NCBI GenBank assembly: GCA_035291665.1
Contig: DATDRP010000003.1
Coordinates: 20,549 to 84,548 of the forward strand
Source: Patescibacteria group bacterium
GTDB lineage: Bacteria; Patescibacteriota; Microgenomatia; UBA8517
DNA length: 64,000 nucleotides
Direction: 5' to 3'
Part shown: piece by piece, positions 594 to 64,000 of the stretch
How the letters are laid out: every line of letters begins with the position of its first letter
Position numbering within the stretch: the first letter of the stretch is position 1
The notes under the pieces: model-generated
Told to the model about the DNA's origin: nothing
Seen by the model: the letters and a program-made list of their open reading frames with translations, nothing else
Database searches by the model: none
Made by a program: the position numbers and the translations under genes

Positions 594-3500
594 ATGAAAT
601 TTAATATAAAAGATAAAAAGACAGGTTTAATGGTTTCTCTGATCGCAGCGGCTGTAGTTATTCTCGTAATTTCGTTTATTGTGGTAAAGGGACCAAAAAA
701 GAATGAAGAAATTACATTTGAAAATACTGGGAATAAAACACTTGTCATAAACATCGACAAAAACCAATATCTTCCTGGTGAAGAGGTCTATATCCAAATG
801 GCTTCTCTTGACGATCAGGGAAACACTCTTTGCAACAGCAAGCTCGAAATAGTTATAACCAACAACCTACAACCTACCCCCTACAACCTACCCCCTACAA
901 CCTACAACCTGTCTGTATTCCCCTCTACGACCTGTAGTCCTGACAATAACGTTACCAATAGTCCTGATTATTATGCTTATTTCATTCCCAAAGATATTGG
1001 AATTTATAAGATAACACTCAAAAACATTGACACTGGCAACACTGTAAAAACTGAATTTGAAGTGAGAGATAATCCGCCGGATCTGTCCGTCACTCGTTGG
1101 AGTGCAACCCGTATCAATCCTTCCAAATCCAGCCGTTATCCGATGGTGATAACTGTAACAGCAAACGAGGACTTCATAGGTACAATATCCGATACAATTC
1201 CTGAATCATACAGCTTTGCTTGGACAGGACCGGGAAAAGTTGAAGGGAACTCAATCACTTGGGAAGCGAAATTAAAAAAAGGCGAAAAAACCGAACTTAA
1301 ATATGAATACATACCCGAAAAAGTAAGCCCAAAATTATTTACAATCGGCCCGATTATTACCAGTAAACCACAAAACATTACTAACAACTTACAACTTACA
1401 ACCTACAACTCGACATGGTATATCGCATCTGACTCCGTTATAACCAGCAAAACCACCGGTGGTGATTGGAACGTCGGAGGCTCATGGGTTGGTGAAGTTG
1501 CACCTGGGACGGGAGATTCGGCGGTGATTGCTACAACCGGCGCAAGTACCATCGTTTTAACAAGCAGTCCGACTGTTTTGGCATTAACTATTAATAGTGG
1601 TTCTATTCTCACCAATAATTCCACCGCTCAAACTCTCACACTGACCACCACTTCTGTAACACCTCTTACCAACAGTGGAACATTTACACCGAGCACATAT
1701 ATAACAATTGTTGTCAACGGAGCCGCCGCCATAAACCCAGTACTTTCTGGGACTTGGACCGGCAGTAGTTCTTTTTATAACCTGGAATTCAGACCGGCTC
1801 TCGGAACAACAGCCAGAACTTACACGATGGGTACCGCTTTTACGGTTAACGGAAACATGATCCTTTATCCCACCACAAGCTCAGAAAGAGCTCTTACTGT
1901 TACCCTGAGCGGTACATCGACTGTGGTCGGAACAACCACGCTCAACGGTACCGGATGTAATGACGCCGGAGATAGCACTTCCGGCTCTTCAGTTCTTAAT
2001 ACCAACGCGCAAACTTTTTCTTCCGGAAAAATCGATATCAAAGAAAACGCTGAATTTTGTATACTTACAGGAAGCGCTGCTACAATTACCTTAACAGGCA
2101 CTTCCGGGACACTTTTAACTAATCCAAATGCCGGTTCTTTTACACAATCCACTTCTACCATCAATGTTACAAGCACCTCCGGCCCGGTACAGTTATTTTC
2201 AGCTGCTGAAACTATCTATAACCTAACCATCAATTCCTCCTCGGCAACCACTGTTGTCAACTCAGGTGCAACACCGACATTTGCATCCAGCGGTGCTTTG
2301 ACTATTACTTCAGGAGTTTTGAATTTTGATACAGGAGTAACAGGTCCGGGAAACAGTACCCTAACAATCGGAGCTTCTGGAACACTGTGTCTGGGTGGAA
2401 CTGCCGCTGCAACAAACACCAGTGTAACCTGCAATACCGGAGCCACCTCAACTTCTGCGATCCTAATGCCATCTTTTACAACTTACACTTTTGACGCATC
2501 ATCAACTGTTATTTTTCTTTCAGATATTGACCTAACCGCAGCAAATGTAATTTCCCGGATAGCCGGTAATAGCTACGGCAATCTCTATCTTTATCCTACA
2601 TTTGTCACAACATCGCGCGCATATACTTTTGAAACAGGAACTTTAAGTATTGCCGGTAACTTTACGATTAATCCAAACGAATCGGGCGCGGGTTCTCCTG
2701 TTCTAACAGTAAACTTGGGCGGAACAACCACCATTGCAGCTGGAAAAACTACCACAATTACTGCAACAAACAGTGCCGCCTCCAACTTAAACCAAGCCGC
2801 CAATACCAACACACTTTCTTCAGGGAAAATAGATATTGCTACAAAGGGAACACTCACTGCTATTACAACAGGCACTATTACTCTCACCGCCACATCAGGT
2901 ACCCTTTTTACCCGTGATACAAGCGGCTCTCCAGGAACTTTTACACAAGCTTCTTCAACTATTTCTGTAACCTCAGCCTCAGGTCCGGTACAACTGTTCT
3001 CTTCCACTAATACTATATATAGTTTGACAATTAATTCAGCTGCGGCAACTACTGTTGTCAACTCAGGTGCAACACCGACATTTGCATCCGGCGGAGCTCT
3101 GACTGTCACATCAGGAGTTTTGAATTTTGATACAGGAGTGACAGGTCCGGGAAACAGTACTCTTACAATCGGAGCTTCTGGAACGATGTGTCTGGGTGGA
3201 ACTTTGGCTGCAACAAACACCAGTGTAACCTGCAATACCGGAGCAACATCAACAACAGCTATCCCAATGCCATCATTCACAACATATACATTTGATGCAG
3301 CTTCAAAAGTAATTTATCTATCGGATGCAGATCTCACCGCAGGTAACGTAATCTCAAGATTGGCTGGTGGAAGCTACGGCAATCTCTACCTCTATCCAAC
3401 ATTTGTCACAACATCCCGCTCCTACACTCTCGAAACCGGAACTGTCGGCATAGCCGGAGATTTAATTATTAACCCTGATGAATCGGGTGCGGGTTCTCCA

Positions 3501-17799: not shown

Positions 17800-17968
17800 A
17801 AGAAGAGAAAAGATATTGATTGTAAGCGGTAGGAAGTGAGATGTGAGAAGTGAGTTGTGAGTGATGGGTAATTAGTCTTAAGTATCCAGTTGTACGCGGT
17901 AAGTTGTAGGTTGTAGGAAGTGAGTTGTAGTAAATTAGTAGTAATTCGTGATAATAATTCGTGACTAA
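17800..17968. repeat. Composite intergenic repeat island A (GT-rich C-depleted module + AATTCGTGA array)
   Basis: 'ggtaggaagtgagatgtgagaagtgagttgtgagtgatgggtaattag...gtaagttgtaggttgtaggaagtgagttgtag...gtaattcgtgataataattcgtgactaattagtgattcac'. Almost no C on the + strand. Confidence 0.7.
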
Positions 17969-21379: not shown

Positions 21380-21583
21380 TTTGGAAATTGGAATTTGGTA
21401 ATTGGATATTTAGGTATTAGGTTGTAGGAAATGGGAAATGAGTAGTGACTAGTGGGAAGTGGGAAATGGAGATAAGCAAGTAGGTTGTAGGAAATTAGTA
21501 GCAATTCGTAGCTAATTGGAAGTATTTCGTGAACTTAATATCTTAATATCGAAGCACATAATATCTAACTGATTCGTGTTTAA
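21380..21583. repeat. Composite repeat island B (TAATTG/GGAAATTGG module, GT-rich module, AATTCGTA array, 33-nt 3' motif)
   Basis: 'ggaaattggaatttggtaattggatat' is shared with 14255-14285. 'ggttgtaggaaatgggaaatgagtagtgactagtgggaagtgggaaatgg'. 'cttaatatcttaatatcgaagcacataatatct' at 21534-21566. Confidence 0.7.
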
Positions 21584-24251: not shown

Positions 24252-24260
24252 CTGAAGTAA

Positions 24261-25187: not shown

Positions 25188-25236
25188 ATTATTTACTATA
25201 TATGCTTATATTGATCATTGCATCATCTGATATTAT

Positions 25237-25614: not shown

Positions 25615-25840
25615 AGATATAAATAACTTTTAATTGAACAATTAATAAGGACCTTCATAAATTTTCCTCCCTATTAATTTTAGGAAAATTTCCAAAGAAC
25701 CTTGCATTTTTGCTTTGCAAAAGTGTTAATACTTTCGTCATGTTTCAGAATAACTATTAATTGTGACATTATTAAAGTCACATTAGGACGCTTCAATTAC
25801 TTTAATTTAAAATTAGCTTAAAGTTCAATAGGATGTTTTT

Positions 25841-26218
25841 TTACAGCGACGAAGGTTGGAGAATTTTATTTATCTTTTTACCCATCTCTTTCGGTTTAAT
25901 ATCTTTTTTAACCCAATAATCAATAGCGCCTTTTTCCTTTGCAAGATCCATATCATTTTCCCCGGACAAATTGGTAAGCATGACAATCGGGATATTTTGT
26001 ATTTCAGGATCTGTCTTAATTTTTTCGAGTGCTTCGATCCCATTCATTCCCGGCATCATAATATCCATCAAAACAATATCAGGCTTCCAATCACGCGTTT
26101 TGGCAACTCCATTTTCACCACCCATCGCAAGTTCTACTTCAAAGTTATCGAACGCCAATGCTTTCTCGTACATTCTTGCCACCAGCGGCTCATCTTCAAC
26201 TATTAAAACCCTTGTCAT
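25841..26218 (-). CDS. Stand-alone response-regulator receiver (REC) protein
   Basis: 125 aa. 'RVLIVEDEPLV...IVLMDIMMPGMNGIEAL...IPIVMLTNLSG...DYWVKK'. Confidence 0.8.
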   Translation of the reverse strand: MTRVLIVEDEPLVARMYEKALAFDNFEVELAMGGENGVAKTRDWKPDIVLMDIMMPGMNGIEALEKIKTDPEIQNIPIVMLTNLSGENDMDLAKEKGAIDYWVKKDIKPKEMGKKINKILQPSSL

Positions 26219-26354
26219 ATTGCTACAAATATACTACGTATTCAAAACTAATTAATCTACAAATTATTATAGTACATGTGTTTGAAAGATATCCACTCAA
26301 ATTATTCTTGTATTCGAAGCTTAATTTGAATAAAATTCGTAGCTAATTTGTAGC

Positions 26355-28136: not shown

Positions 28137-28204
28137 TATTTATATGTAAGAAGATTCCCTGCGAAAGAGGAATCTTTGTCGAAAGTGTTCAAGAATCCTT
28201 CAAA

Positions 28205-28594
28205 TCAGCCGGATTTCGACGCCGAACCTAAATATTTTTCAACCAAATCGCCTAATTTTGCTATATCGGTTTTACTTTTAATAAGATAACCGGCGGCACC
28301 TTTTTCCATTGCAAGTTCCGCATCATTTTTCCCGGAAAGATTCGTAAGCATTACGATCGGAATTTTTGCCGTTTTGGGATTGCTTTTTAATTTATCCAAG
28401 ACTTCAATTCCGTCGGGTTCCGGCATCATAATATCAAGGAAAATAAAATCAGGATTTTCTGATTCTGCTTTTTCAAGTCCTTCTTTCCCGCCGATTGCCA
28501 GAACGGTATCATACTTTGCGAACCTGAGGGCTTTTTCATACATTCTTGCCACCAGCTCTTCATCTTCGACTAATAGTACTTTCACCATAATCAC
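28205..28594 (-). CDS. Stand-alone response-regulator receiver (REC) protein
   Basis: 129 aa. 'KVLLVEDEELV...FIFLDIMMPEPDGIEVL...IPIVMLTNLSGKND...GYLIKS'. Confidence 0.8.
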   Translation of the reverse strand: MIMVKVLLVEDEELVARMYEKALRFAKYDTVLAIGGKEGLEKAESENPDFIFLDIMMPEPDGIEVLDKLKSNPKTAKIPIVMLTNLSGKNDAELAMEKGAAGYLIKSKTDIAKLGDLVEKYLGSASKSG

Positions 28595-28654: not shown

Positions 28655-29056
28655 ATGGCCAAATTAATCTTCCCTAAATTAAGTTATACCATAATGGGAA
28701 TCCTTTTTCAGATTCATGCAAAACTCGGGAATCAATATCAAGAAAAATACTACCAACGAGCATTAGAATCGGCCTTAAAAGAACATGATATAAAATATAA
28801 AAAAGAACTCAAATCGGACTTATTTTATAACGAAGTAAAGATAGGGAAATATTTTCTCGACTTTTTGATTGAAGATAAAATTATATTAGAGTTAAAGACT
28901 AAACCCTTTTTTACTGGTCAGGATATAAGACAGGTTTTAGCTTACTTAAAAGCCAACAATAAACGTTTAGGTATTCTGGCAAATTTTAGAACTGGAAGTC
29001 TCACATATAAAAGAATTATTAATAACCACTACACCCCATTCATAAATAATTCGTGA
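28655..29056 (+). CDS. GxxExxY family protein (PD-(D/E)XK-like fold)
   Basis: 133 aa. 'HAKLGNQYQEKYYQRALESAL...DFLIEDKIILELKT' matches the GxxExxY signature and the downstream D...E.K motif. Gene is flanked by AATTCGTGA-type repeats. Confidence 0.7.
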   Translation: MAKLIFPKLSYTIMGILFQIHAKLGNQYQEKYYQRALESALKEHDIKYKKELKSDLFYNEVKIGKYFLDFLIEDKIILELKTKPFFTGQDIRQVLAYLKANNKRLGILANFRTGSLTYKRIINNHYTPFINNS

Positions 29057-29105
29057 TTCCTATTCGTGAGCAATTCGTGATTTAGTGTATTAAATTCGTA
29101 AGTAA

Positions 29106-31457: not shown

Positions 31458-31571
31458 ACATTCATATTAACAAACAATACCTCACTAATTAATTGCTAAT
31501 TCCAATTGGAGATTAATTCGTGTTTCTAATTTGTGAGTAATTAGTGATCAAAATTCGCTTGCAATTCGTGA

Positions 31572-47584: not shown

Positions 47585-48921
47585 TTAGAGTGTATTGGTA
47601 TGAGAACCCGAGAATAATTGAGATTCCGCTTCCGGCAACAGAAATTACTATTCAGGACTTGACTGATCAGATTAAAGATCTTGAAGACGAACCTGCAAAT
47701 CTTGCCTTCCCGATTTTGGTAAAAACCTTCGGTAAGCAGCCGTTGGGAGCAGGTGTTTATGTAGGTATCACAGCTGAACTGCAAAATGCCAAAGTGTCTT
47801 TTGCAGCCAGAGATGGAACCGATATCCCACCGGAGGTGCTTTGTACAATCTCCGGTGGAAATTTGGTTGCTGTCGATGAAAATGGCGTTCCTATGAACCC
47901 AATACACCCGACTGCGTATACTCAAGTTGTTCTTGCCCAGTCCTCCTCGGCAACAATTGCCACACCGCCGTCGGACTACAGTTTGCTGTATCTTGTGGAG
48001 TCACTGCGGGGAAACCACGCATCGGTTGGGAACATTTGGTACTGGGACCCGGTTAGCGGGTCTGATACCAATGACGGGACCACGCCATCAAACGCAGTGC
48101 AAACCTTCGCTAAGGTTCAATCACTTTCTGATTTGGCAAACGGGGTTAATGATATCGTTTTCGCGCTCGTTACCGACCCATCCGGTATTACAACGGTTAC
48201 AAATGAAAATATTAATATCACCTCTTCTACACCAGGCATGAAACTCCGGGGGCCGGGGTATGCCTTTCAATTCAAACCGGCAACGGCGGGTAGCGATGTG
48301 ATTACAATATCTGCCGACAATGTTGAAGTCAGCGGCTTTTATATCCAGCCAAAATCTCCGGGATCCGATAACGGTATCACGGTAACCGGTGATAGTGCTC
48401 TTATTAAAGATATCTGGGTTGATACGGCAACCGCCAATGGAATTGATATCAGCACTTCCTCAAGAACCAAAATTGAAAAGTGCGTCATCGAAAACTGCAC
48501 CGGAAACGGAGTTAATCTTGGCGCGTCAACGATCAAATCCAATATCACAACCTGTATCATCTCCGGTTGTGTCAACGGGGTTGATCTAGGAGGGTCGGGG
48601 TTAACCGACAATATCCTGGAAAATAATGTTATTTATAATAATTCCGGTTATGGGATTGATATCGGTGCCGGAGTTTTGCGGACGGGTGTTCGGATGCATC
48701 ACACGTTTTCTAATAACACTTCGGGCAGTTATTACGACGAACCGCCCACTGCAGCAAAATACACTTTTGTCGAAGAAGGTGTTGCAACCGGAGATATAAA
48801 CGCTATTGTAGATGCAGTTTGGGATGAGGTTATCTCACCTTCCGCCCATACCGGTGCCCAATCAGCGGGTAAAACTCTTCGCGATGCAAAAACAAAAGCC
48901 ACTCTGGCATCACTTAAGTAA
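47578..48921 (+). CDS. Right-handed beta-helix (pectin-lyase fold, tailspike-like) protein
   Basis: Repeats 'GNGVNLGASTIKSNITTCIISGCVNGVDLGGSGLTDNILENNVIYNNSGYGIDIGAG' are typical parallel beta-helix rungs. No signal peptide. The start is placed at the ATG at 47578, because the track's GTG at 47536 overlaps the divergent TPR gene. Confidence 0.45.
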   Translation: MALRVYWYENPRIIEIPLPATEITIQDLTDQIKDLEDEPANLAFPILVKTFGKQPLGAGVYVGITAELQNAKVSFAARDGTDIPPEVLCTISGGNLVAVDENGVPMNPIHPTAYTQVVLAQSSSATIATPPSDYSLLYLVESLRGNHASVGNIWYWDPVSGSDTNDGTTPSNAVQTFAKVQSLSDLANGVNDIVFALVTDPSGITTVTNENINITSSTPGMKLRGPGYAFQFKPATAGSDVITISADNVEVSGFYIQPKSPGSDNGITVTGDSALIKDIWVDTATANGIDISTSSRTKIEKCVIENCTGNGVNLGASTIKSNITTCIISGCVNGVDLGGSGLTDNILENNVIYNNSGYGIDIGAGVLRTGVRMHHTFSNNTSGSYYDEPPTAAKYTFVEEGVATGDINAIVDAVWDEVISPSAHTGAQSAGKTLRDAKTKATLASLK

Positions 48922-48934
48922 TTTTGTAAATTAG

Positions 48935-49235
48935 AGATAAGAAAAAAAATGGGATGTGGGAAGTGGGTTCTAAGTAATAGGTTGTAAGCAGTAAGTTGTA
49001 GGAGGTAGGTTGTAGGAGATAGGTTATAGGAAAAGAGAAATGAGTTGTGGGAAGAGAAACTGGGAATGAGATGTGAGTTGTGAGTAGTGGGAAATACAGA
49101 TAAGAAATTAGGAATATAGGAATTAAGAAATTTAGAATAAAGAGAATAGAGAAATAGGAAAAATAATTGCGGAAGGGAGATTGATAATTGTAAAATAAAT
49201 CCTATATTAATGGTGTTGTGAAGACTAACGAAGTA
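48935..49235. repeat. Composite repeat island C (modules X and Y)
   Basis: Module X 'gggatgtgggaagtgggttctaagtaataggttgtaagcagtaagttgtagg' and module Y 'gtgggaaatacagataagaaattaggaatataggaattaagaaatttagaataaagagaatagag'. Only ~5 C in ~240 nt on the + strand. Confidence 0.75.
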
Positions 49236-49427
49236 TTACTCAGCTTTTGGATCGGTCGGCTCTTCTTTGACTGCTTTTTCGAATTCACTTTTAGCCTGTT
49301 TTATGCCTTTTGTGGTTTCACCGGCTTTCTTGCCAAGACCTCTGAAAATTGCTCCACCGAAGAATAAAAGTACTACTAAAACGATAATGATAATTTCGGT
49401 CGTTCCGATATTTTGAAGAAATCCCAT
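49236..49427 (-). CDS. tatA: Twin-arginine translocase subunit TatA/E family
   Basis: 63 aa. 'MGFLQNIGTTEIIIIVLVVLLFFGGAIFRGLGKKAGETTKGIKQAKSEF' gives N-terminal TM + FG hinge + amphipathic helix. Flanked on both sides by GT-rich repeat islands. Confidence 0.7.
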   Translation of the reverse strand: MGFLQNIGTTEIIIIVLVVLLFFGGAIFRGLGKKAGETTKGIKQAKSEFEKAVKEEPTDPKAE

Positions 49428-49439
49428 ATTAAAAAATAT

Positions 49440-49900
49440 ATTAATACTAAGATTCCCGAATGTCCAGTAGCAGTTTTACCCCATATTAGTAAAGGGTGAC
49501 AGAAAATTAGATTTAAGTTTAAGTTGTATGTTGTAGGTGATAGGAAGTGAGTAATGAGAAGTGAGATGTGAGAAATAAGAGTTAAGAGGTAGGTTGTAGG
49601 TGGTGGGATGTGGGATGTGAGTGGTGGGAAATACAAATAAGAATTTAGGAATACAGGAATTAAGAGAAAAGAAATGGGATGTTGGAAGTGGGTTTTAAGT
49701 AATAGGTTGTAAGTAGTAAGTTGTGGGAAAAAGGTTGTAGGTTATAGGTTATAGGAGCGAAGTTAGAAATATAGAAATTTAGTATTTTGTTTTAAGTTTT
49801 CAATTGAAGAACATTGGCCATTTAGCATTCGTATCTCGTCTCACGTATCACGTATTACATCGCTTGGTTTGAAAAGTACCGAACTAACAAGATCTCATTG
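49440..49900. repeat. Composite repeat island D (modules Y then X, then 'CGTATCTCGTCTCACGTATCACGTATTAC' module)
   Basis: Y: 'gtgggaaatacaaataagaatttaggaatacaggaattaagag'. X: 'gggatgttggaagtgggttttaagtaataggttgtaagtagtaagttgtggg'. These are the same modules as island C in swapped order. The tail module is shared with island F. Confidence 0.75.
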
Positions 49901-49934
49901 ACAGTTTCGATTACATCAAATTAATATTACCTGT

Positions 49935-50606
49935 ATGCCTTCAGCTTTATACAATAGAAAATACGTACAGAATGGCTACTATTATATTTATCACAAGTCC
50001 TCGGGAGGAAAAGAATTATTCCGCGATGAAGATGACTATTTGAATTTTGTTAAAACTTTTCAATATTATTTGACATCACCCACCGGTAAACCTCTAAGTC
50101 AAACAAAAAAAGAGGATTTAACCCAAACACCTTCACATATCCAGCTCTCTTTCAGGATACTACTGTTTGTCCTTCTACCCAAAAGTATACACATATTAAT
50201 CCGACAAAATACTCCCCCTCAGACCAACAATAATATAACTAATCTGATGCGAAGACTTTCTATCACTTATTCGATGTACTATAAAAACAGATACGATACT
50301 CATGAAAGCTTATTTGATGGGAAGTATAAAAATATTAATATCCCCGACAACGAAAAACTTCTTTATTTGTCCAAACATATTCACAGAATGCCCCTTGACC
50401 TTTATCCGCAGGAAACACTTGAGAAATACATTTACTCCAGTTATCCCTTTTATATTGGTGTGGCCGGCAAACCCGATTGGTTAGATACAAAAATAATATC
50501 CGATATACTCTTACGGTCAAGTCCGGGTTTGGGATACAAAAATTTTGTTGAAAATTCACACCTTGGCAAAGACTTGGATAAGAAATATATCGTGAATGGG
50601 GGTTAA
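49935..50606 (+). CDS. IS200/IS605-like Y1 (HuH) transposase / RAYT-like protein with degenerate HuH motif
   Basis: 'NGYYYIYHKSSGGKELFRDEDDYLNFVKTFQYYL' corresponds to the N-terminal block (YHVxxRGNxRxxIFxDDxDxxxFL). 'KSIHILI' sits at the HuH position, where the first His is replaced. 'ITNLMRRLSITYSMYYKNRY...SLFDGKYK' corresponds to the LxxLxxxYT...WQxRY(K) block with the candidate catalytic Tyr. Confidence 0.5.
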   Translation: MPSALYNRKYVQNGYYYIYHKSSGGKELFRDEDDYLNFVKTFQYYLTSPTGKPLSQTKKEDLTQTPSHIQLSFRILLFVLLPKSIHILIRQNTPPQTNNNITNLMRRLSITYSMYYKNRYDTHESLFDGKYKNINIPDNEKLLYLSKHIHRMPLDLYPQETLEKYIYSSYPFYIGVAGKPDWLDTKIISDILLRSSPGLGYKNFVENSHLGKDLDKKYIVNGG

Positions 50607-50692
50607 CAACCAATAATTAAATCTATATATCTGTTTTTTGGGACTCTTGATCAAACTATAAGAAGAAAGTATGATTAGGAAACAATAAATTT

Positions 50693-50938
50693 ATGTTTTC
50701 CAACATCGGCGTCACTGAAGTTATTATCATCATCTTGGTTCTGACTGTGATTCTCGGCAGTAAGAAAATGGGAGAACTTGCCAGCAATGCCGGACGGGCT
50801 GGCGCTGAGCTAAAAAAAGTCAAAAAGGAATATGAAGCTGCTATGAAAGAATTGGACAAGGAAATCAACGTTGATGATGAAAAAAAAGAAAAATCAGAAA
50901 AGAAAGATTCTTCAGAAAAAAAAGGAGGTGAGCTTTAA
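50693..50938 (+). CDS. Tat translocase subunit, TatB-like (TatA/B family with extended charged tail)
   Basis: 'MFSNIGVTEVIIIILVLTVILGSKKMGELASNAGRAGAELKK' has the TatB-like 'LG' hinge instead of FG. The long K/E-rich C-terminal tail is TatB-like. It overlaps the next tatA by 1 nt (TAATG). Confidence 0.55.
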   Translation: MFSNIGVTEVIIIILVLTVILGSKKMGELASNAGRAGAELKKVKKEYEAAMKELDKEINVDDEKKEKSEKKDSSEKKGGEL

Positions 50939-51078
50939 TGGCTAATTTTGGAGTACCGGAACTTCTCATTATTTCATTAATACTTGTGTTCATGTTCGGA
51001 AGCAGAAAAATTCCGGAATTCATTAAAGGTATGGGTCAGGGAATCAAAGAATACCGAAAAGCTGTAAGCCGTAAGTAA
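50938..51078 (+). CDS. tatA: TatA family protein (46 aa; absent from ORF track because <60 aa)
   Basis: ATG at 50938 overlaps the upstream stop (TAATG). Translation is MANFGVPELLIISLILVFMFGSRKIPEFIKGMGQGIKEYRKAVSRK, with stop TAA at 51076-51078. Canonical TatA TM-FG-amphipathic helix. Confidence 0.7.
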   Translation: MANFGVPELLIISLILVFMFGSRKIPEFIKGMGQGIKEYRKAVSRK

Positions 51079-51100
51079 ACCTTGGATTTCAACGTAAATT

Positions 51101-51835
51101 ATGCCCAAAACGCAGGAGCTTCAACTTGAAGAGTCCATAAATAAATATTATCCGTTTCTGATGGAAATCAGGAAAAGACTTTTATTCCTGGCAACAATCT
51201 TTGTGGTTTCCGCAGTCGGGGGATTTTTTTATTACGAACGGATTGTCAGAATAATTGTTGATTTTTTGTCGCTTGACGGCATCAACATTGTTTTCACCTC
51301 GCCTTTCCAGTACTTAAATCTTGCCGTTGATGTTGCCTTCCTGGTCGCAGTAATTGTTATCTTTCCGGTAATCATCTATCAGATAATAACTTTCCTACGT
51401 CCCGCTCTCAAAAAAAGTGAGTACAATTTAATGATCTCCTTAATCCCCATTGGTTTTTTCCTATTTATATTCGGCTTCATCTACGGAGTTGTCATGATGC
51501 GCTATGTTATGCAACTATTTTTCGAAAAATCAGTCGAGCTTAATATCGGCAACATGCTGGATATAAGCTCGCTACTTTCCAAAATAGTATCAACTTCAAC
51601 TTTTATGGGTTTAGCTTTTGAATTTCCAATCGTTGTCACGGCTTTGGTAAAACTTAAAGTTATAAAACTTAAAGTCGTTTCCCAACAAAGAGTTTACGCC
51701 TGGTTTGCATCCCTGATCTTCGCGGCAATGCTGCCGCCTACGGATCTGCTTTCTTTGGCACTTCTGACTATGCCTCTTGTAATCCTATTCGAATTTACGC
51801 TATTATTTAACAGATTATTTTCTTTGAGAAAATAA
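51101..51835 (+). CDS. tatC: Twin-arginine translocase subunit TatC
   Basis: 244 aa, six TM helices. 'GLAFEFPIVVTALVKLKVI' and 'AAMLPPTDLLSL' match conserved TatC segments (FE-PV, P-TD). Confidence 0.8.
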   Translation: MPKTQELQLEESINKYYPFLMEIRKRLLFLATIFVVSAVGGFFYYERIVRIIVDFLSLDGINIVFTSPFQYLNLAVDVAFLVAVIVIFPVIIYQIITFLRPALKKSEYNLMISLIPIGFFLFIFGFIYGVVMMRYVMQLFFEKSVELNIGNMLDISSLLSKIVSTSTFMGLAFEFPIVVTALVKLKVIKLKVVSQQRVYAWFASLIFAAMLPPTDLLSLALLTMPLVILFEFTLLFNRLFSLRK

Positions 51836-51912
51836 TCATATTATAAGTCCGGTTAGATTTGGGCACTTGCCAAGCCCGATCGCACCTAACCATAGAGAGG
51901 GAGTGATAGTAA

Positions 51913-52059
51913 ATGTTAAGAGGTATTGGAACTACAGAACTATTAATCATTGCTGTTGTACTTTTGGTGTTGTTCGGAGGTAAGAAGTTGCCTGAACTTG
52001 GAAAAGGAATCGGAGACGCTATCCGAGAGTTCAGAAATTCAATGAAGAATAAGGAATAA
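51913..52059 (+). CDS. tatA: TatA family protein (48 aa; <60 aa, not in ORF track)
   Basis: SD GGGAG lies 9 nt upstream of ATG 51913. Translation is MLRGIGTTELLIIAVVLLVLFGGKKLPELGKGIGDAIREFRNSMKNKE, with stop at 52057-52059. Confidence 0.7.
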   Translation: MLRGIGTTELLIIAVVLLVLFGGKKLPELGKGIGDAIREFRNSMKNKE

Positions 52060-52564: not shown

Positions 52565-52730
52565 TATAATCTCTGATGTGAGAGTTGAGAGATGAGATGT
52601 GGGAAGTGAGAAGTGAGTTGTAAGCAGTAGGTTGTAGGTAATAGGTTGTGGGAGGTAGGAAATTGGTATATTCCTAATATCTTAATATCGAAGCACATAA
52701 TATCTCTCCTATTCGTGATCAGTTCGTGAT
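52565..52730. repeat. Composite repeat island E (GT-rich module + 33-nt 3' motif + TTCGTGAT pair)
   Basis: 'gatgtgagagttgagagatgagatgtgggaagtgagaagtgagttgtaagcagtaggttgtaggtaataggttgtgggaggtagg', then 'cctaatatcttaatatcgaagcacataatatct' (52673-52705), then 'attcgtgatcagttcgtgattc'. Confidence 0.75.
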
Positions 52731-53297
52731 TCAAAGAATCCATTGAAGAAAAACTGTCGCAAACTCATCCTCAGAAAAATCAATCAGTGTTTTTGCTCCC
52801 ATTTGTTTGTAAAAATTCAAAGACAGGTTGGTCGTATCGCTGACGTAAGAATATATTGCTTTCATGCTATTTTCTCTTGAAAATTTGATGGCCTTCTTGA
52901 AAAGTCTCGATCCGTACCCCTTATCCCGATATTCCGGCCGGATATACATATACATCAACTCATAAGAAGGTTTAATCATGTGGTAATCCTCTGAAACCCA
53001 TTTTTCTTCTTTAAAAGTTTTTTCCCAAAAATTCATTTTCGCATCCGAAAAACCAAAAACACAAAAACCAACGTAGTTGTCGCCGTTTTCATCTTCTTGA
53101 AATATTACATGTACTTTGGAGTTTGAATCTTTGTCGCGAAGGTCAAATTCTTTGGAAATTCTTTTTACAAATTTTTTATAAAAAGTATCACCGCCTACAA
53201 TCTCTGAAATTTGCATTATTTCGTCACGGACCATACCCAAGTATATTTCAAATGGGATTTTGTAGTAAAGATTACTTTGTAGGTCAAAATAGAGCAT
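52731..53297 (-). CDS. GNAT family N-acetyltransferase
   Basis: 188 aa. 'YMYIRPEYRDKGYGSRLFKKAIKFSRENSMKAIYSYV' is acetyl-CoA-binding motif A (R/Q-x-x-G-x-G/A). Confidence 0.65.
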   Translation of the reverse strand: MLYFDLQSNLYYKIPFEIYLGMVRDEIMQISEIVGGDTFYKKFVKRISKEFDLRDKDSNSKVHVIFQEDENGDNYVGFCVFGFSDAKMNFWEKTFKEEKWVSEDYHMIKPSYELMYMYIRPEYRDKGYGSRLFKKAIKFSRENSMKAIYSYVSDTTNLSLNFYKQMGAKTLIDFSEDEFATVFLQWIL

Positions 53298-53304: not shown

Positions 53305-53631
53305 AAGCACTATGGCCAGGCGCTAGGTATAAGGTAGTGAGAAGTGAGAAATGAGATGTGGAAATTGAGATGTGGGAAGTAAGTGGTGGGAAGTGGAAAA
53401 TAGGTTGTAGGAGGTAGGATATCAGGAATATAGGAATTAAAGGAATAAGTAGTTTCGTTCTTCTTTTTTCGTCTCTCGTATCCCGTATAACTTGTCACTT
53501 GTTACGTATTACTTTTCCCCTACCGCTTGATATCTTTCCTATTCGAGTTCAATTCGTAGCTATAATTCGTGATAATTAGTGATGTAAATTTGTGAGCTAA
53601 ATTCGTGAGTTCAATTCGTCTTAACTCGTAG
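53305..53631. repeat. Composite repeat island F (GT-rich module, 'TCGTCTCTCGTATCCCGTATAAC...ACGTATTAC' module, AATTCGTGA array)
   Basis: 'ggtagtgagaagtgagaaatgagatgtggaaattgagatgtgggaagtaagtggtgggaagtggaaaataggttgtaggaggtagg', then 'cgtctctcgtatcccgtataacttgtcacttgttacgtattac', then 'caattcgtagctataattcgtgataattagtgatgtaaatttgtgagctaaattcgtgagttcaattcgt'. Confidence 0.75.
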
Positions 53632-57833: not shown

Positions 57834-58479
57834 ACCGTATCGGTACTTCTGTTATAATTTACGTATCGGTACAAATAAGATTCTCCAACAAACAAAAATT
57901 TTAGTGGTTTTAAAGATATCCTATACTTTCGAATTTTATAAATATTTAATTTTGGTTCTTAAAAAATATAATGTTTTATTTTTCATAACGGTACAACTAC
58001 ATTTTTGTATTTTGTTGATAATTTTTTTATAATTTCTTATAAATTTTTTGGGTCTTAAATTGCTAAATTATTAAAATATTTCTAGGTATATTCTTATGTA
58101 CCTTCGGTACATTCATATTTTCCTGCTATTTTTCTAAAAAAACCCAAGTCAGTTATTGATATCCCCCATTGGTCTAACACTGTAGTTTTTTCTAAAGAAA
58201 AATTTCATCATTTTTAATACTTCTTTTTTTGTATTTTAAATTGTTATTCCAATATTTTTATACTGCTCCGGTGCAATTACCCCTCGGTATTTTTCCTCCG
58301 TTATTTCGTATGAAGTAAATTTTCTCTGAAACTAGAATTCTCTTTTCTTATCCCCGAACATACATACATGGTATTTCAGGAAGTTGGATAATTTTTTTTA
58401 GTTTATTATTGATTCCTAATCTTCGTAACAACTATTTATGTAACGGTTGATTATTAAAATATTTGAATTTTTTATATTG

Positions 58480-58598
58480 TAATGACATCCTCCCCGCCTT
58501 AAAAGGCGGGGTTTCCCTAAGGAGGATGACATACCGTGCCCGCCGGCAGGCAGGTCAGAGTTCAATTCATCCACGCCCTAAAGGGTTAGGTTTTCTTG
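58480..58598 (+). ncRNA. Candidate structured small RNA / RNA element, copy 2 (plus strand), ending in an intrinsic terminator
   Basis: Outer stem ATGACATCCTCC (58482-58493) ... GGAGGATGACAT (58521-58532) encloses the hairpin CCCCGCC-TTAAAA-GGCGGGG. Shared single-stranded 'TCAGAGTTCAATTCATCCAC'. 3' hairpin CCTAA-AGGG-TTAGG followed by TTTTCTTGAA. Reverse-complement homolog of 20612-20720. Confidence 0.5.
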
Positions 58599-58858
58599 AA
58601 CGCTGTTATAATTAGATTGTAAATATAATTCTTATAATATAATACAAAATTAATATTAATATTTTAAATTTATCGTTCTTGAAAGTAAATTAATTATAAT
58701 TCTTGAATAGAATTTATATAACTACATAAAAATATACATTTCACTAACTACTATTATATATAACACTATATGTATTAATAGATCTCATAATAGCACTAAA
58801 TACCACTTTATAATTTTTACAACATCTGATATATATAGAGTTATAAAGAGGAATTAAT

Positions 58859-59887
58859 ATGGATGATCAGCAATCAGCTGGACTTTTCAGTATCGGAGCA
58901 GCTTCCGAATATCTAGGAATATCTATTGATACACTAAGAAGATGGGAAAGAAAAGGCAGAATCGAACCCCTACGATCCCCAGGAGGGCATCGCTATTTCA
59001 AGAAGGAAGACTTGGATAATTTATTTGGAAGAAGATACACAAGAGAAGAACCGGCTAACCAATCAACTATGCCCGATAGTACACCTATTGAACAAACAAA
59101 TATTAAGGAAGATGTAACACAACCCTTAAGCAATTTAAACGATAATAATTCAAGTGTAACTGAGAATTTAACGTCTACCCAATCAGCAGATGCAACCGTT
59201 CAAGATACTATATCTAAAGAAGATTATCCGCAACAAACTGCAAATCCTCAATTAAAGACTGAAGTTCCGGAAAATAATCCTCTACAAGAACCAATTTCAC
59301 CTACTCCAGTTGCTATACCCGTTCCAAACCAGAATGAAATGTTAAAAACCATTCCTTATTCGGATCCGGGCGTACCTGCTGCTACCGAAAATATACAAAG
59401 TTCCTCAACTGCACCCGAAGTGCAAGTTGCCTCTCCCCAACCGATAATAGAACTGCCAAAGATCTCGCCGGATGAGTATCCCGATACGAAAGTTTCAAAG
59501 CCGGATCAAATAACTAATGAACCGGTTGCTAAACCTACGGAACCTATTCAAAGCTATGAGAACGATAATACAACACAAAATGCACATTTAGTTGAAGCGC
59601 CTTCTCAGGTTGAAAATGCTAACACACAAGAAACGCTTATACCTGTTACCCCGGTTCCTGAATCTTCATCACAAGTGCCTTTGAATGAAGCTCCAAAACA
59701 ACCTGTATATGAAACAACAAAAGATATTGATAAAAAAATTGAAGAAGTTTTACAAAGCAGTAAACCGAAGAAGAAAATTACAACAGAAACCAAGTTACTA
59801 ATAGCCATAGCAATCGCTATTGTTGTAAACATTATTCTTTTTACACTTTGGTTCAAATCTTACGCTTCAGTATCACCAGTAAACTAA
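58859..59887 (+). CDS. MerR-family HTH protein with long disordered P/T/Q-rich linker and C-terminal transmembrane anchor
   Basis: 'FSIGAASEYLGISIDTLRRWERKGRIEPLRSPGGHRYFKKEDL' is a MerR/excisionase-type HTH. About 230 aa of low-complexity sequence follow. C-terminal 'LLIAIAIAIVVNIILFTLWF' TM helix. Confidence 0.55.
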   Translation: MDDQQSAGLFSIGAASEYLGISIDTLRRWERKGRIEPLRSPGGHRYFKKEDLDNLFGRRYTREEPANQSTMPDSTPIEQTNIKEDVTQPLSNLNDNNSSVTENLTSTQSADATVQDTISKEDYPQQTANPQLKTEVPENNPLQEPISPTPVAIPVPNQNEMLKTIPYSDPGVPAATENIQSSSTAPEVQVASPQPIIELPKISPDEYPDTKVSKPDQITNEPVAKPTEPIQSYENDNTTQNAHLVEAPSQVENANTQETLIPVTPVPESSSQVPLNEAPKQPVYETTKDIDKKIEEVLQSSKPKKKITTETKLLIAIAIAIVVNIILFTLWFKSYASVSPVN

Positions 59888-59889
59888 CG

Positions 59890-60065
59890 AAAGGGATATT
59901 ACGTGCTTCGATATTAAGATATTAGGACTATTTCAATTTTTAATTTCCCTCTTTCCACCACTCACATCTCACTTCCCATTACTCATTTCCAATTTCTTTT
60001 CTCTTTTCTCTTTATTCTAAATTACTTAATTCTTAAATTCCTGTATTCCTAAATTCTTATTTCTA
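59890..60065. repeat. Composite repeat island G (reverse orientation: 33-nt motif complement, then CT-rich complement of modules X/Y)
   Basis: 'gatattacgtgcttcgatattaagatattagg' (59895-59926) is the reverse complement of the 33-nt motif. '...ctctttattctaaattacttaattcttaaattcctgtattcctaaattcttatttc' is the reverse complement of module Y. Confidence 0.7.
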
Positions 60066-60070: not shown

Positions 60071-60141
60071 TGGACCGGCCGAGAATCGAACTCGGGACTC
60101 GTCGTTGCGAACGACGCGGTATTCCACTTACCTATCGGCCC
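60071..60141 (-). tRNA. tRNA-Ala (anticodon CGC)
   Basis: Reverse complement folds as acceptor GGGCCGA / CCGGTCC (G3:U70 alanine identity pair; A7:C66 mismatch). D-arm GGTA-AGTGGAA-TACC. Anticodon stem CGTCG/CGACG with loop TTCGCAA (anticodon CGC). T-arm CCGAG-TTCGATT-CTCGG. Discriminator A. CCA not encoded. Confidence 0.85.
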
Positions 60142-60240
60142 TGTGATGGCACTATTATACCAATAAATGAATTTACAAAACACATTAGCCATAGTTCATA
60201 CTCTCTATCTAATATCGAATCACTTAATATCAATTTATTT

Positions 60241-61526: not shown

Positions 61527-62876
61527 TCAAGAAGTTGTGAGTGAATCCAAAAACTCTTTGTTGTCCTTGGTTTTTTTGAGTCTTTCCAATAGAGCTTCCG
61601 TCCGTTCATCTTCCGAAACCATCTCAAGCATACGTCGGAGTGTATACACCTTTTGCAGAATATCTTTACCGTAAAGAAGCTCCTCCTGGCGGGTGCCCGA
61701 TCTTGTAACGTCAATTGATGGGAAAATTCTTCGGTCTGCCAATTTTCGATTAAGGTGCAGTTCCATATTTCCCGTACCTTTGAATTCTTCATAAATAAGG
61801 TCATCCATTCGCGAACCCGTATCAACCAAACAGGTTCCAATGATTGTCATTGATCCGCCGTTTTGAATCTTTCTTGCCGCTCCGAAAAATTTCTTTGCAG
61901 GATATAAAGCAACCGGATCGAACCCTCCTGTTAGAGTTCTTCCCGATGTGGGAAGTGCCAGATTGTATGCCCTGGCCATTCTTGTTATTGAATCCAAAAG
62001 AACTACAACATCCATCCCCATTTCAACCATCCTCTTTGCTTTCTCAAGCGCAAGTTCTCCGACTCTTGTTTGGGCATCGGGTGACTCGTCAAAGTTTGAT
62101 GATGCGACTTCACCCAATCCGTTGGTGACTGTATTCATATGCATCCTGATGTCCGTTACTTCTTCCGGACGCTCCCCGATCAAAACCGCCATCAAATGCG
62201 CTTTTACATCGGATTTTCCATCCTCGGCAAAGTTTTTCGCAATCCCTGTAATAACATCTTTCAAAAGCCACGTTTTACCGGCCTTTGGAGGAGATACAAT
62301 AAGTCCTCTTTGTCCAAAGCCGATTGGCGCAACGAGATCAATTACTCGCGTTGTCAAAGGTTCTGCTCCGGTCGATAGAGTGATATGTTTGTCGGGGTAG
62401 ACTGCAGTCATGCTGTCATAATCAGGTCTCTCCAATAATTTTTCAGTGTCGGAACCGTTTACCTTCTCAACTTTCAAAAGCCCCCAATATCTTTCGTTTT
62501 CTTTCGGTGAACGCGCTTGTCCGCCAACCAAATCACCTACTCGCAGATTGAATCTTCTTATCTGTGAGGCTGAAATATAAACATCTTTATTGGAAGGGGT
62601 GAAATCAGGTCGGAGAAGTCCTGACCCTTCATTGGCAATATCCAGTACACCCTCGACATATTCTGTAGGAAGATTAGCGTCAGGCATATAACGGTCATAA
62701 CCGTTTTGACGATAGGGTTCATCCTGAACCGGATTAACATCATTGACAGGTGCTTCCGCTTTTATTGGTTCCGGCTTCTCACCTACAAGATTTTTAACTT
62801 CGTCAACGGGTTTTACATCATTTCCGGGATCCAAAATTTCGTCTTTATCAGTCTTAGTGGACTTCTTTGTAGCCAT
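61527..62876 (-). CDS. rho: Transcription termination factor Rho
   Basis: N-terminal RNA-binding OB region '[14 protein letters not shown]...[44 protein letters not shown]'. Walker A 'SPPKAGKT'. '[13 protein letters not shown]' and the C-terminal '[39 protein letters not shown]' are highly conserved Rho blocks. Confidence 0.9.
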
Positions 62877-63841: not shown

Positions 63842-63884
63842 TAATACACTTTTAAAAAGATGGAATTTGTAAGACGAAATTTTT

Positions 63885-64000
63885 CACCACCCTCATCCCA
63901 TTTCCCATCTCTTACCACTTACTTCTCACAACCTGTCTCCAAAATCCAAAACCAAATCCCAAATTCCAATTTCATCTCCCTTTTCTCTATTCTCTTAGTT
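63885..64000. repeat. Repeat island H (reverse orientation, G-depleted on + strand)
   Basis: 'caccaccctcatcccatttcccatctcttaccacttacttctcacaacctgtctccaaaatccaaaaccaaatcccaaattccaatttcatctccc' is the reverse complement of GT-rich and GGAAATTGG-type modules. Continues beyond the window edge. Confidence 0.6.

What the first reader, a model, noticed from the sequence alone, without database searches (positions are those of the whole stretch)
48935..49900. Multi-module interspersed repeat family with extreme strand asymmetry (C-free on one strand), shuffled module order, at least 8 loci in 64 kb
Islands at 17800-17968, 21380-21583, 48935-49235, 49440-49900, 52565-52730, 53305-53631, 59890-60065 and 63885-64000 are assembled from a small set of modules:
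- X: 'GGGATGTGGGAAGTGGGTTYTAAGTAATAGGTTGTAAG'.
- Y: 'GTGGGAAATACARATAAGAAWTTAGGAATAYAGGAATTAAGA'.
- A 'CGTCTCTCGTATCCCGTATAAC..ACGTATTAC' module.
- AATTCGTGA arrays.
- The 33-nt 3' motif.
The same modules recur in different order (islands C vs D) and in both orientations (G and H are reverse complements). Stretches of >200 nt contain only ~5 C on one strand. Such RNA could form only A-U/G-U pairs, so this is not a hairpin-type REP/BIME. Islands concentrate around the tatA copies and flank a RAYT/IS200-like gene.
Basis: seen in the sequence. Interest (0 to 1): 0.75.

Follow-up and report, generated by a model that had tools for sequence, protein, structure and literature searches.

The report
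Degenerate 7-base tandem repeats between genes
The C-free "islands" are long, sloppy tandem arrays of a 7-base unit (roughly WWGTRRG) that fill the spaces between genes in an uncultured groundwater Woesebacteria (CPR) genome; this is a known kind of bacterial simple repeat seen in a new lineage, not a modular mobile element.

Summary
All eight islands exist, one strand almost lacks C (316 nt with 9 C; 337 nt with 8 C; longest C-free run 133 nt), and independent assemblies are 100% identical.

Every island has its strongest self-similarity at a lag of 7 or 14 nt. The islands are in-phase, degenerate heptanucleotide arrays with the unit W-W/G-G-T-R-R-G.

- Period-7 arrays cover 940 nt of the window, against 0-63 nt for periods 5, 6 and 8-11.
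- Neighbouring units are more alike than a permuted order, which is the mark of slippage in 7- and 14-nt steps.
- Relatives (Microgenomates) carry period-7 arrays with unrelated units.
- "Module" X has only two copies, both flanking one tatA. Y has two full copies, but its 17-nt core recurs in five islands.
- The neighbouring 223-aa gene descends from a RAYT/IS200-type transposase. It has lost a catalytic His and the Tyr, and it lacks the REP hairpins that flank its homologs elsewhere.

Best reading: slippage-generated heptanucleotide arrays of the LSSR/STRR class, shuffled by local duplication. A role as unstructured, G-free Rho-loading RNA is possible but not supported statistically. This is a new member of a known kind, of moderate interest.

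The parts
48949..49091 (+). Island C: two in-phase blocks of WWGTRRG heptamers (15 + 4 units). Contains module X (48951-48988).
49087..49160 (+). Module Y (49087-49128), including the Y core TAGGAATATAGGAATTAAG, followed by 8-9-nt period TAGGAATA-type repeats.
49519..49755 (+). Island D: heptamer blocks 49519-49628 (16 units, 0 C) and 49660-49755 (14 units, 0 C), separated by module Y (49624-49665). Module X lies at 49676-49713.
49826..49860 (+). The second copy is at 53478-53520.
17822..17952 (+). Two blocks of 9 WWGTRRG units each, running into the AATTCGTGA repeats at 17943-17975.
21381..21506 (+). TTGGAAW heptamers (21381-21410) followed by WWGTRRG heptamers. The 30-nt motif lies at 21536-21565.
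52578..52659 (+). 12 WWGTRRG units. The 30-nt motif lies at 52675-52704 and the AATTCGTGA-type repeats at 52707-52731.
53323..53445 (+). 14 WWGTRRG units followed by the Y core (53423-41). Downstream are CGTATNN heptamers (53478-53520) and AATTCGTGA repeats (53545-53619).
59927..60065 (-). G-free on the + strand. WWGTRRG units lie on the - strand (59947-59986), with the Y core and octamer repeats at 59995-60065. The 30-nt motif is at 59895-59924.
63883..64000 (-). WWGTRRG units (63883-63929) and TTTTGGA heptamers (63938-63969) on the - strand. The island runs on past the window end, where the Y core lies (L001 8858-8874).
857..910 (-). TTGTAGG/GGGTAGG heptamers (AACCTAC on the + strand), in frame inside ORF 594-5537. 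A second such array is at 1380-1410.
49236..49427 (-). Context only: tatA (63 aa), the gene lying between islands C and D.
49935..50606 (+). Context only: decayed RAYT/IS200-like (Y1 transposase family) gene. The first HUH His and the catalytic Tyr are replaced, and there are no flanking REP palindromes.

Best explanation
The islands are non-coding arrays of a degenerate heptanucleotide tandem repeat. On the G-rich strand the unit is W, W/G, G, T, R, R, G, for example TTGTAGG, AAGTGAG and ATGTGGG. They lie in the intergenic regions of a Candidatus Woesebacteria (Microgenomates, CPR) genome from the Rifle aquifer.

Mechanism, in steps:
1. Arrays grow and turn over by slipped-strand mispairing or unequal exchange in steps of 7 and 14 nt. 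This is shown statistically.
2. Because the founding units contain no C, the whole array is C-free on one strand and G-free on the other. This is inferred.
3. Units then diversify, mostly by A/G and A/T changes. This is shown.
4. Larger pieces of 60-90 nt, such as X and Y, are copied between nearby or similar arrays by duplication or ectopic recombination. That gives the appearance of shuffled modules. The duplication is shown; the mechanism is inferred.

The preference for a 7-nt register is shared across Microgenomates, but the unit sequence is genome-specific. This points to a property of the replication or repair machinery rather than to a sequence-specific mobile element.

The arrays are probably largely neutral spacer DNA. 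When transcribed in the G-free sense they would give long, unstructured, C-rich RNA, and this may be tolerated or mildly useful.
For: Period 7:
- TRF calls periods 7, 14 and 21 in every island.
- Intergenic autocorrelation peaks at lags 7, 14, 21 and 28 (0.350, 0.334, 0.325 and 0.312, against about 0.295 elsewhere). Coding sequence shows only 3-periodicity.
- Each of the 8 islands peaks at lag 7 or 14.
- Period-7 arrays cover 940 nt, against 0-63 nt for periods 5, 6 and 8-11.
- Four consecutive GTRRGNN units occur 15 times, against 0 in 100 shuffles.

Unit matrix:
- In 125 in-phase units, position 4 is T in 119, position 7 is G in 117, and positions 5 and 6 are about 50/50 A/G.

Slippage signature:
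- Adjacent units differ by a mean Hamming distance of 2.52, against 2.86 when units are permuted within their own array (p<0.001).
- Pairs with at most 1 mismatch number 25 against 17.4 expected at lag 1, and 25 against 14.7 at lag 2. There is no effect at lag 3.

Location:
- 58 of 90 arrays in the window plus relatives lie in the roughly 16% of sequence that is non-ORF.

Lineage:
- Roughly 40% of 80 Microgenomates Rho loci carry period-7 arrays with unrelated units such as CTATTGG x10, AAGTTCA and TACTAAC.
- The pooled relatives show small peaks at lags 7, 14 and 21.
- The WWGTRRG family is absent from all of them.

C is not forbidden:
- The X and Y paralogous copies differ by A/G 8, C/T 3, A/T 4 and G/T 2. 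C therefore does arise by point mutation in roughly neutral proportion.

Reality of the sequence:
- Assemblies from several samples are identical through the islands.

Literature:
- Heptanucleotide units are the most abundant class of long simple sequence repeats in many prokaryotes, and polymerase-linked slippage has been proposed. This is Mrazek et al. 2007 as summarised in PMC4679880.
Against: - The arrays are far more degenerate than classic SSRs. Units differ by about 2.5 of 7 positions, yet phase is kept for up to 16 units.
- C is almost absent even at the two free positions, with 7 C in 250 sites against about 37 expected (P about 1e-10).
- Neighbouring units that differ at a single position show 18 A/G and 16 A/T changes but 0 C/T. 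This is hard to obtain from symmetric neutral mutation and hints at a filter against C.
- No copy-number polymorphism was seen among samples. They all come from one site and one population.
- A 17-nt non-heptamer module (the Y core) is conserved in five islands. Pure slippage does not explain this.
Confidence: 0.72

Rival explanations
1. The arrays are functional 3' elements. Transcribed in the G-free sense, they give 80-240 nt of C-rich, G-poor, unstructured RNA that acts as a Rho loading (rut) site. They would terminate or insulate transcription in a genome with few intrinsic terminators.
For: - The G-poor strand has 27-45% C, 1-5% G and 15-31 YC dinucleotides per 100 nt.
- It folds at only -0.55 kcal/mol over 241 nt.
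- A complete Rho gene is present at 61527-62876.
- Terminator-like hairpins are not enriched in 46-64 kb (14 found, 13.6 expected) and none sits at a gene end there.
- Several 3' flanks fold no better than shuffled sequence, and some fold worse.
- In this genome the G-free sense follows a co-oriented upstream gene in 9 of 11 skewed arrays.
- Two convergent spacers (14070-14338 and 21200-21583) carry opposite-polarity repeats in their two halves.
- In five islands the order after the stop codon is the same: TCACGAATT repeats, then the 30-nt motif, then G-free heptamers.
Against: - Only tandem-gene contexts are informative, and they give 3 for and 1 against.
- Island H, between two minus-strand genes, has the G-rich strand as the sense strand.
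- Island D lies between divergent promoter-like sites and is probably not transcribed.
- In relatives the orientation is 5 for and 10 against.
- 3' flanks in general show no C>G skew (n=30, mean -0.03, p=0.67).
- Some intrinsic-type hairpins do exist, for example at 17802-17786 and after rho.
Confidence: 0.15
2. The arrays are multivalent binding platforms for a nucleic-acid-binding protein with a footprint of about 7 nt. Candidates are an OB-fold or cold-shock-type ssRNA/ssDNA binder, or a nucleoid-associated protein. The register and the absence of C would then be maintained by selection.
For: - Phase is kept over 100+ nt despite heavy unit divergence.
- T4 and G7 are nearly invariant while R5 and R6 vary freely.
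- C is strongly avoided at the free positions.
- There are no C/T differences among neighbouring units.
- CspB is reported to bind heptamer direct repeats, one protein per heptamer (PMC4679880).
- A UAG-N4-UAG spacing, as in TAGGTTGTAGG, recalls HutP sites. This is my own recollection and was not tested.
Against: - No candidate protein was identified.
- Arrays occur in both orientations and in every type of intergenic context.
- Relatives have period-7 arrays with unrelated units. A sequence-specific binder would have to change in every genome.
- Detection criteria partly impose the core pattern of the unit matrix.
Confidence: 0.08
3. The islands are a modular interspersed (mobile) repeat family, possibly mobilised by the adjacent RAYT/IS200-like protein.
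For: - Short modules recur in several islands: the Y core in 5, the 30-nt motif in 4-5, and AATTCGTGA arrays at 9 or more gene ends.
- The largest islands lie next to a Y1-transposase-family gene.
Against: - The islands have no hairpins and no shared termini.
- The bulk of each island is a tandem 7-mer.
- The RAYT-like protein lacks HUH His1 and the catalytic Tyr.
- That gene has no flanking REP palindromes, unlike its homologs.
- Its homologs elsewhere have no arrays nearby.
- X has only two copies, and they are adjacent.
Confidence: 0.04
4. The islands are an assembly artefact, such as collapsed or chimeric low-complexity sequence.
For: Short contigs from some samples break in or next to the islands. 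L086 starts at 49361 and L087 at 49813.
Against: Independent assemblies from several JGI samples and a Logan SRA assembly are 100% identical across the islands.
Confidence: 0.01

Closest known systems
Long simple sequence repeats (LSSR) with 5-11-nt units in prokaryotes, heptanucleotide class (Mrazek, Guo & Shah 2007, as summarised in PMC4679880)
   Same: - 7-nt unit in head-to-tail arrays that are longer than chance.
- Mostly non-coding.
- Scattered, lineage-specific distribution.
- Slippage is the proposed origin.
   Different: - The arrays here are much more degenerate and are mosaics of several unit variants.
- They run to 100-240 nt and are completely strand-asymmetric.
- To my knowledge, and after two literature searches that returned nothing, they have not been described in CPR/Patescibacteria.
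Cyanobacterial STRR (short tandemly repeated repetitive) heptanucleotide sequences (Mazel et al. 1990; cited from my own knowledge, and the term was confirmed in the library)
   Same: - Several families of tandem heptamers in intergenic regions of one genome.
- Genome- or lineage-specific unit sequences.
- Function unknown.
   Different: - The phylum and the unit sequences differ.
- STRR units contain both C and G, and the arrays are more homogeneous.
TAACTGA heptamer direct repeats of marine Beggiatoaceae and some Cyanobacteria (PMC4679880)
   Same: - Abundant intergenic heptamer direct repeats.
- A post-transcriptional role was proposed, with an OB-fold/CSP protein as a possible reader.
   Different: - Those repeats are 2-6 exact copies of a single heptamer, mostly just upstream of start codons.
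- Here there are up to 16 degenerate units, found mostly downstream of genes or between divergent genes.
REP/BIME elements and their RAYT transposases
   Same: - Interspersed intergenic repeats.
- A RAYT-family gene is adjacent to the largest islands.
   Different: - The arrays contain no palindromic hairpin.
- The RAYT homolog is catalytically degenerate and lacks the flanking REP palindromes that its homologs have.
Rho utilisation (rut) sites
   Same: One strand gives at least 80 nt of C-rich, G-poor, unstructured RNA.
   Different: - The orientation relative to genes is not consistent.
- rut sites are not known to be tandem heptamers.

Membership tests
Heptanucleotide LSSR / STRR-type tandem repeats | Repeat unit of 7 nt | tested here: met
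   - TRF calls periods 7, 14 and 21.
- Autocorrelation peaks at lag 7 in the intergenic sequence as a whole and in each island.
- Period 7 dominates periods 5-11.
Heptanucleotide LSSR / STRR-type tandem repeats | Head-to-tail tandem arrangement, longer than expected by chance | tested here: met
   - There are 13 in-phase chains of 4-16 units.
- The four-unit GTRRGNN pattern occurs 15 times, against 0 in shuffles.
Heptanucleotide LSSR / STRR-type tandem repeats | Predominantly non-coding location | tested here: met
   - All eight islands are intergenic.
- 58 of 90 arrays lie in the roughly 16% of sequence that is non-ORF.
- The exceptions are two in-frame arrays inside ORF 594-5537.
Heptanucleotide LSSR / STRR-type tandem repeats | Generated by slippage: local unit-to-unit similarity and copy-number polymorphism | tested here: inconclusive
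   - Neighbouring units are more alike than a permuted order at lags 1 and 2.
- No length variation was seen among assemblies from the same site.
REP/BIME (RAYT-associated) | Imperfect palindrome able to form a stable hairpin | tested here: not met
   Over 241 nt, the minimum free energy is -0.55 kcal/mol on the G-free strand and -15.6 kcal/mol (z -1.1) on the G-rich strand.
REP/BIME (RAYT-associated) | RAYT with an intact HUH motif and catalytic Tyr, flanked by REP copies | tested here: not met
   - The motifs read KSIH in place of NHFH, and KHIH in place of KYIH.
- There is no flanking palindrome. Homologs P0002 and P0004 have one on both sides.
Transposable element / MITE | Defined ends (terminal inverted repeats) and target-site duplication | tested here: inconclusive
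   - No shared termini or bounding inverted repeats turned up in the repeat search.
- The islands fill whole intergenic spacers.
- No strain lacking an island was available for comparison.
Rho-dependent terminator (rut site) | At least 70-80 nt of C-rich, G-poor, unstructured RNA | tested here: met
   The G-poor strand has 27-45% C and 1-5% G and folds at -0.55 kcal/mol. This holds for one strand only.
Rho-dependent terminator (rut site) | Lies downstream of a co-oriented gene, so that the C-rich strand is the transcript | tested here: inconclusive
   - Skewed arrays in the window: 9 for and 2 against.
- Informative tandem-gene contexts: 3 for and 1 against.
- Relatives: 5 for and 10 against.
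- 3' flanks in general show no skew.
Rho-dependent terminator (rut site) | Rho-dependent 3' ends demonstrated | not testable with these tools
   This needs Term-seq or RNA-seq with and without Rho inhibition. Only the presence of a rho gene is shown.
Known RNA families (Rfam) | Match to a curated covariance model at its gathering score | tested here: not met
   The only hit in the whole window is tRNA-Ala at 60071-60141.

The most novel reading that the evidence does not exclude
The heptad arrays are not neutral. On this reading, the near-total exclusion of C from one strand, the strict 7-nt register kept through heavy divergence, and the fixed order after stop codons would mark a previously undescribed, selection-maintained 3'-end or insulator element of CPR bacteria. 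That order is TCACGAATT repeats, then the GATATTA x3 motif, then G-free heptamers. The transcript would be read in a 7-nt register by an OB-fold protein such as Rho or a CSD protein.
Probability: 0.12. Interest if true: 0.65.

Novelty: new member of a known kind. Interest (0 to 1): 0.35.

Why it matters
- **Streamlined genomes.** CPR/Patescibacteria genomes are small and streamlined. It is therefore notable that about a quarter of this window's intergenic DNA lies in the repeat islands (about 2.1 kb of 8.4 kb), and 940 nt is detected as period-7 arrays.
- **Origin of the 7-nt bias.** Many Microgenomates carry period-7 arrays with unrelated units. This fits the old proposal that a 7-nt slippage register is a property of the replication machinery, and it gives a new, deep-branching lineage in which to test it.
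- **Practical consequences.** These arrays break short-read assemblies. Their G-free strand stays open in all three frames, which can create spurious ORFs. In-frame copies inside a giant surface-protein gene could act as frameshift switches.
- **If selected.** If the arrays turn out to be under selection, they would be a handle on transcription termination or RNA-protein recognition in organisms that cannot yet be cultured.

Tried and rejected
- **Rfam at gathering thresholds.** Only a tRNA was found.
- **Canonical G-quadruplex motifs (G3+ x4).** None occurs in any island.
- **Hairpin or REP structure.** Rejected by folding both strands.
- **Replication-strand explanation for array polarity.** Cumulative GC skew falls steadily across the window, apart from a local rise at 49-50 kb caused by the arrays themselves, while array polarity switches.
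- **General 3'-flank C>G skew.** Absent.
- **Orientation rule in relatives.** Not reproduced.
- **Pfam on the 223-aa ORF.** No hit even at E=10. Its family came only through homologs.
- **Association of that gene's homologs with arrays.** None found.
- **Metagenome scan for five consecutive GTRRGNN units.** It hit at least 120 unrelated contigs of 34-71% GC, mostly homogeneous single-unit repeats.
- **Phase variation.** The look-up of the partial first ORF failed. The 1647-aa ORF was found with the same allele on all 7 contigs read.
- **Mrazek et al. 2007.** The paper could not be read directly.
- **DnaA-box and Shine-Dalgarno resemblances.** Considered by eye and dropped as too weak.
Full report
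**What is there**

The region 48935-49900 holds two non-coding islands on either side of a small minus-strand tatA gene (49236-49427, Pfam TatA_B_E).

Both islands are almost free of C on the + strand. The stretch 48909-49224 has 9 C in 316 nt and 49481-49817 has 8 C in 337 nt. The longest C-free run is 133 nt (49501-49633). Shuffling within 500-nt blocks gave a mean longest run of about 53 nt and a maximum of 88 nt.

Two of them, at 59.9 kb and 63.9 kb, are in the opposite orientation. Contigs from several Rifle-aquifer samples and a Logan assembly match the window at 100% through the islands, so they are not assembly artefacts.

**The organising principle is a 7-nt tandem repeat**

When the islands are written out in sevens, the units line up: TTGTAGG, AAGTGAG, ATGTGGG, TGGTGGG, AAATGAG and so on.

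- TRF reports periods 7, 14 and 21 in every island.
- Each island has its best autocorrelation at lag 7 or 14, at 0.45-0.59 against about 0.28 elsewhere.
- All intergenic DNA in the window peaks at lags 7, 14, 21 and 28. Coding DNA shows only codon periodicity.
- With one detector, period-7 arrays cover 940 nt, against 0-63 nt for periods 5, 6 and 8-11.
- Four consecutive GTRRGNN units occur 15 times, against none in 100 shuffles.

A chain search found 125 in-phase units in 13 blocks of 4-16 units. The composition by position is:

| Position | Composition |
|---|---|
| 1 | A 55, T 61 |
| 2 | A 48, T 52, G 23 |
| 3 | G 84, A 29 |
| 4 | T 119 |
| 5 | A 61, G 59 |
| 6 | A 56, G 67 |
| 7 | G 117 |

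Positions 1 and 2 played no part in detection, yet they hold only 7 C in 250 sites. About 37 would be expected from intergenic composition (P about 1e-10).

**Origin**

Neighbouring units are more alike than the same units permuted within their own array.

- At lag 1, the mean Hamming distance is 2.52 against 2.86 (p<0.001).
- Pairs with at most one mismatch number 25 against 17.4 at lag 1, and 25 against 14.7 at lag 2.
- There is no effect at lag 3.

This is the mark of local duplication in 7- and 14-nt steps, in other words slippage.

**The 'modules'**

- X has exactly two copies, at 48951 and 49676. They lie within a 92-nt duplication at 89% identity.
- Y has two full copies, at 49087 and 49624.
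- So X and Y are a local duplication around tatA, in the order X-Y on one side and Y-X on the other.
- The paralogous copies differ by A/G 8, C/T 3, A/T 4 and G/T 2. C does therefore arise by mutation inside the islands.
- The 17-nt Y core AGGAATAYAGGAATTAA is truly interspersed. It occurs in five islands, always on the G-rich strand.
- The 'CGTCTCTCGTATCC' module is itself a heptamer array of CGTATNN units, at 49826-49860 and 53478-53520.
- The AATTCGTGA arrays and a 30-nt motif are separate elements tied to gene 3' ends (see 'Other elements' below).

**Organism and relatives**

The window's Rho protein is 72-79% identical to Rho of Candidatus Woesebacteria MAGs. The source contigs are Rifle groundwater metagenomes.

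About 1.2 Mb of loci from 80 relatives contain many period-7 arrays, but with unrelated units: CTATTGG x10, AAGTTCA, TACTAAC, AAAACTC and others. These often sit in the spacers next to rho. The pooled relatives show small autocorrelation peaks at lags 7, 14 and 21. The WWGTRRG family is absent from all of them.

A metagenome-wide scan shows that NNGTRRG heptamer arrays as such are common in contigs of every GC content, mostly as homogeneous repeats of a single unit.

The 7-nt register is therefore general, while the unit is genome-specific. That fits a mutational mechanism better than a sequence-specific mobile element.

**The RAYT idea**

The 223-aa ORF at 49935-50606 has no Pfam hit of its own. 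Its homologs at 36-42% identity carry PF01797.

- In the alignment, the HUH motif NHFH reads KSIH, and the catalytic-Tyr motif KYIHxNP reads KHIHRMP.
- Homologs P0002 and P0004 are flanked on both sides by REP-like palindromes, GTGGTTCCGAACCAC and GCAGGTTCSGAACCTGC. They lie in tight housekeeping contexts with no arrays.
- The window copy has no such palindrome.

It is a decayed RAYT and is unlikely to have anything to do with the heptamers.

**Function**

The G-free strand as RNA is unstructured, at -0.55 kcal/mol over 241 nt. It has 27-45% C and 1-5% G, which is the composition of a Rho loading site, and rho is present.

Evidence that leans towards a 3'-end role:
- Terminator-like hairpins are at chance level in 46-64 kb.
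- Several 3' flanks fold no better than shuffled sequence, and some fold worse.
- In this genome the G-free sense follows a co-oriented gene in 9 of 11 skewed arrays.

Evidence against:
- Convergent spacers are uninformative, because one of the two genes always satisfies the rule.
- The informative tandem-gene contexts give 3 for and 1 against.
- Relatives give 5 for and 10 against.
- 3' flanks in general have no C>G skew.
- Island D lies between promoter-like sites of divergent genes.

I therefore treat a rut or insulator role as a minority hypothesis (0.15). A heptad-register binding protein is a smaller one (0.08).

Two observations remain unexplained by neutral slippage. C is excluded from the free positions. 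Neighbouring units that differ at a single position show 18 A/G and 16 A/T changes but no C/T.

**Other elements**

- AATTCGTGA is on the + strand in 11 of 11 exact copies.
- With one mismatch allowed, it lies 2-70 nt after the stop codon, in gene-sense orientation (as TCACGAATT), for 11 genes, and in the opposite sense for 2.
- The motif GATATTAnGTGMTTCGATATTAAGATATTAGG has 4-5 copies. Four of them lie 5-45 nt after a stop codon in gene-sense orientation.
- Both elements are absent from relatives.
- In five islands the order after the stop codon is TCACGAATT repeats, then the 30-nt motif where present, then G-free heptamers.

**Comparison and verdict**

The closest known things are the heptanucleotide long simple sequence repeats of prokaryotes, the cyanobacterial STRR sequences, and the TAACTGA repeats of Beggiatoaceae (PMC4679880). 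For the first of these, polymerase-linked slippage in a 7-nt register has been proposed.

The defining features of that class were tested here, and three of the four were met:
- a 7-nt unit;
- a tandem arrangement with a length beyond chance;
- a non-coding location.

The fourth, copy-number polymorphism, was not observed. REP/BIME membership fails on both defining features.

I found no description of such arrays in CPR bacteria. I class this as a new member of a known kind. It is unusual in its degeneracy, its strand purity, and the length of the islands. Interest is 0.35.

Noticed in passing
window 14323, 16657-16689, 17943-17975, 22038-22085, 29048-29112, 31515-31571, 52710-52729, 53564-53608, 61458: AATTCGTGA-type repeats with an 11-13-nt period. 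All 11 exact copies are on the + strand. They lie 2-70 nt after stop codons in gene-sense orientation (TCACGAATT) for 11 genes, and in the opposite sense for 2. The RNA is unstructured, and the repeats are absent from 80 relatives' loci. This looks like a genome-specific 3'-end element.
   Followed up: partly
window 16693-16722, 21536-21565, 52675-52704, 59895-59924 (rc), partial at 60210-60236: A conserved 30-nt motif, GATATTAnGTGMTTCGATATTAAGATATTAGG, containing three GATATTA repeats. Four of the five copies lie 5-45 nt downstream of a stop codon in gene-sense orientation. It forms no hairpin and is genome-specific.
   Followed up: partly
window 857-910 and 1380-1410, inside ORF 594-5537: Heptamer arrays (AACCTAC x7.7 and ACTTACA x4.4) lie in frame within a 1647-aa putative surface protein, where they encode ...NNLQPTPYNLPPTTYNL.... 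Gain or loss of one unit would shift the frame, so this could be a phase-variation switch. The same allele is present on all 7 contigs read.
   Followed up: partly
window 49935-50606; L210 5960-6000 and 6670-6700; L211 1710-1740 and 2427-2446: The 223-aa ORF is a decayed RAYT. Its homologs in other Patescibacteria keep the HUH and Tyr motifs and are bracketed by REP-like palindromes (GTGGTTCCGAACCAC and GCAGGTTCSGAACCTGC), the classic RAYT-REP arrangement. The window copy has lost the first HUH histidine, the catalytic tyrosine and the flanking palindromes.
   Followed up: yes
window 49236-52059: Four TatA/B/E-like ORFs (49236-49427 on the minus strand, 50693-50938, 50938-51078 and 51913-52059) surround one tatC (51101-51835). 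This is unusually many for a small CPR genome.
   Followed up: no
window 20792-28588: There are five paralogous stand-alone response-regulator receiver genes of about 125-135 aa: 20792, 21584, 25237, 25841 and 28205. They show up as direct or inverted DNA repeats at 64-80% identity.
   Followed up: no
window 6048-6078 and 14135-14165; 14253-14303 and 21245-21303; 21381-21410: Other short-period intergenic repeats are shared between spacers. One is a 31-nt stretch of AATTAGGTY 9-mers that is 100% complementary between two loci 8 kb apart. Another is a set of TTGGAAW heptamers shared by three spacers.
   Followed up: no
L001 6885-7742 (about 1.1-2.0 kb beyond the window's right end): An 858-nt spacer contains about three tandem copies of a roughly 50-nt unit, GAGTGAAGTTATTCACGAGTTTTGACACAGCTTTTACCTCAAGTCTTAAC.
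   Followed up: no
window 57834-58858: A 1-kb gene-free stretch at 29-34% GC (lowest in 58001-59000) contains 8-22-nt period repeats. Two independent assemblies end here, at 58543 and 58682.
   Followed up: no
window 20623-20704 (minus strand): Two near-identical strong hairpins, CC(C/A)CCGAGTCCGACTCGG(G/T)GG, each followed by a T-rich run. They lie 60 nt apart in the spacer between two plus-strand genes, on the opposite strand to those genes.
   Followed up: no
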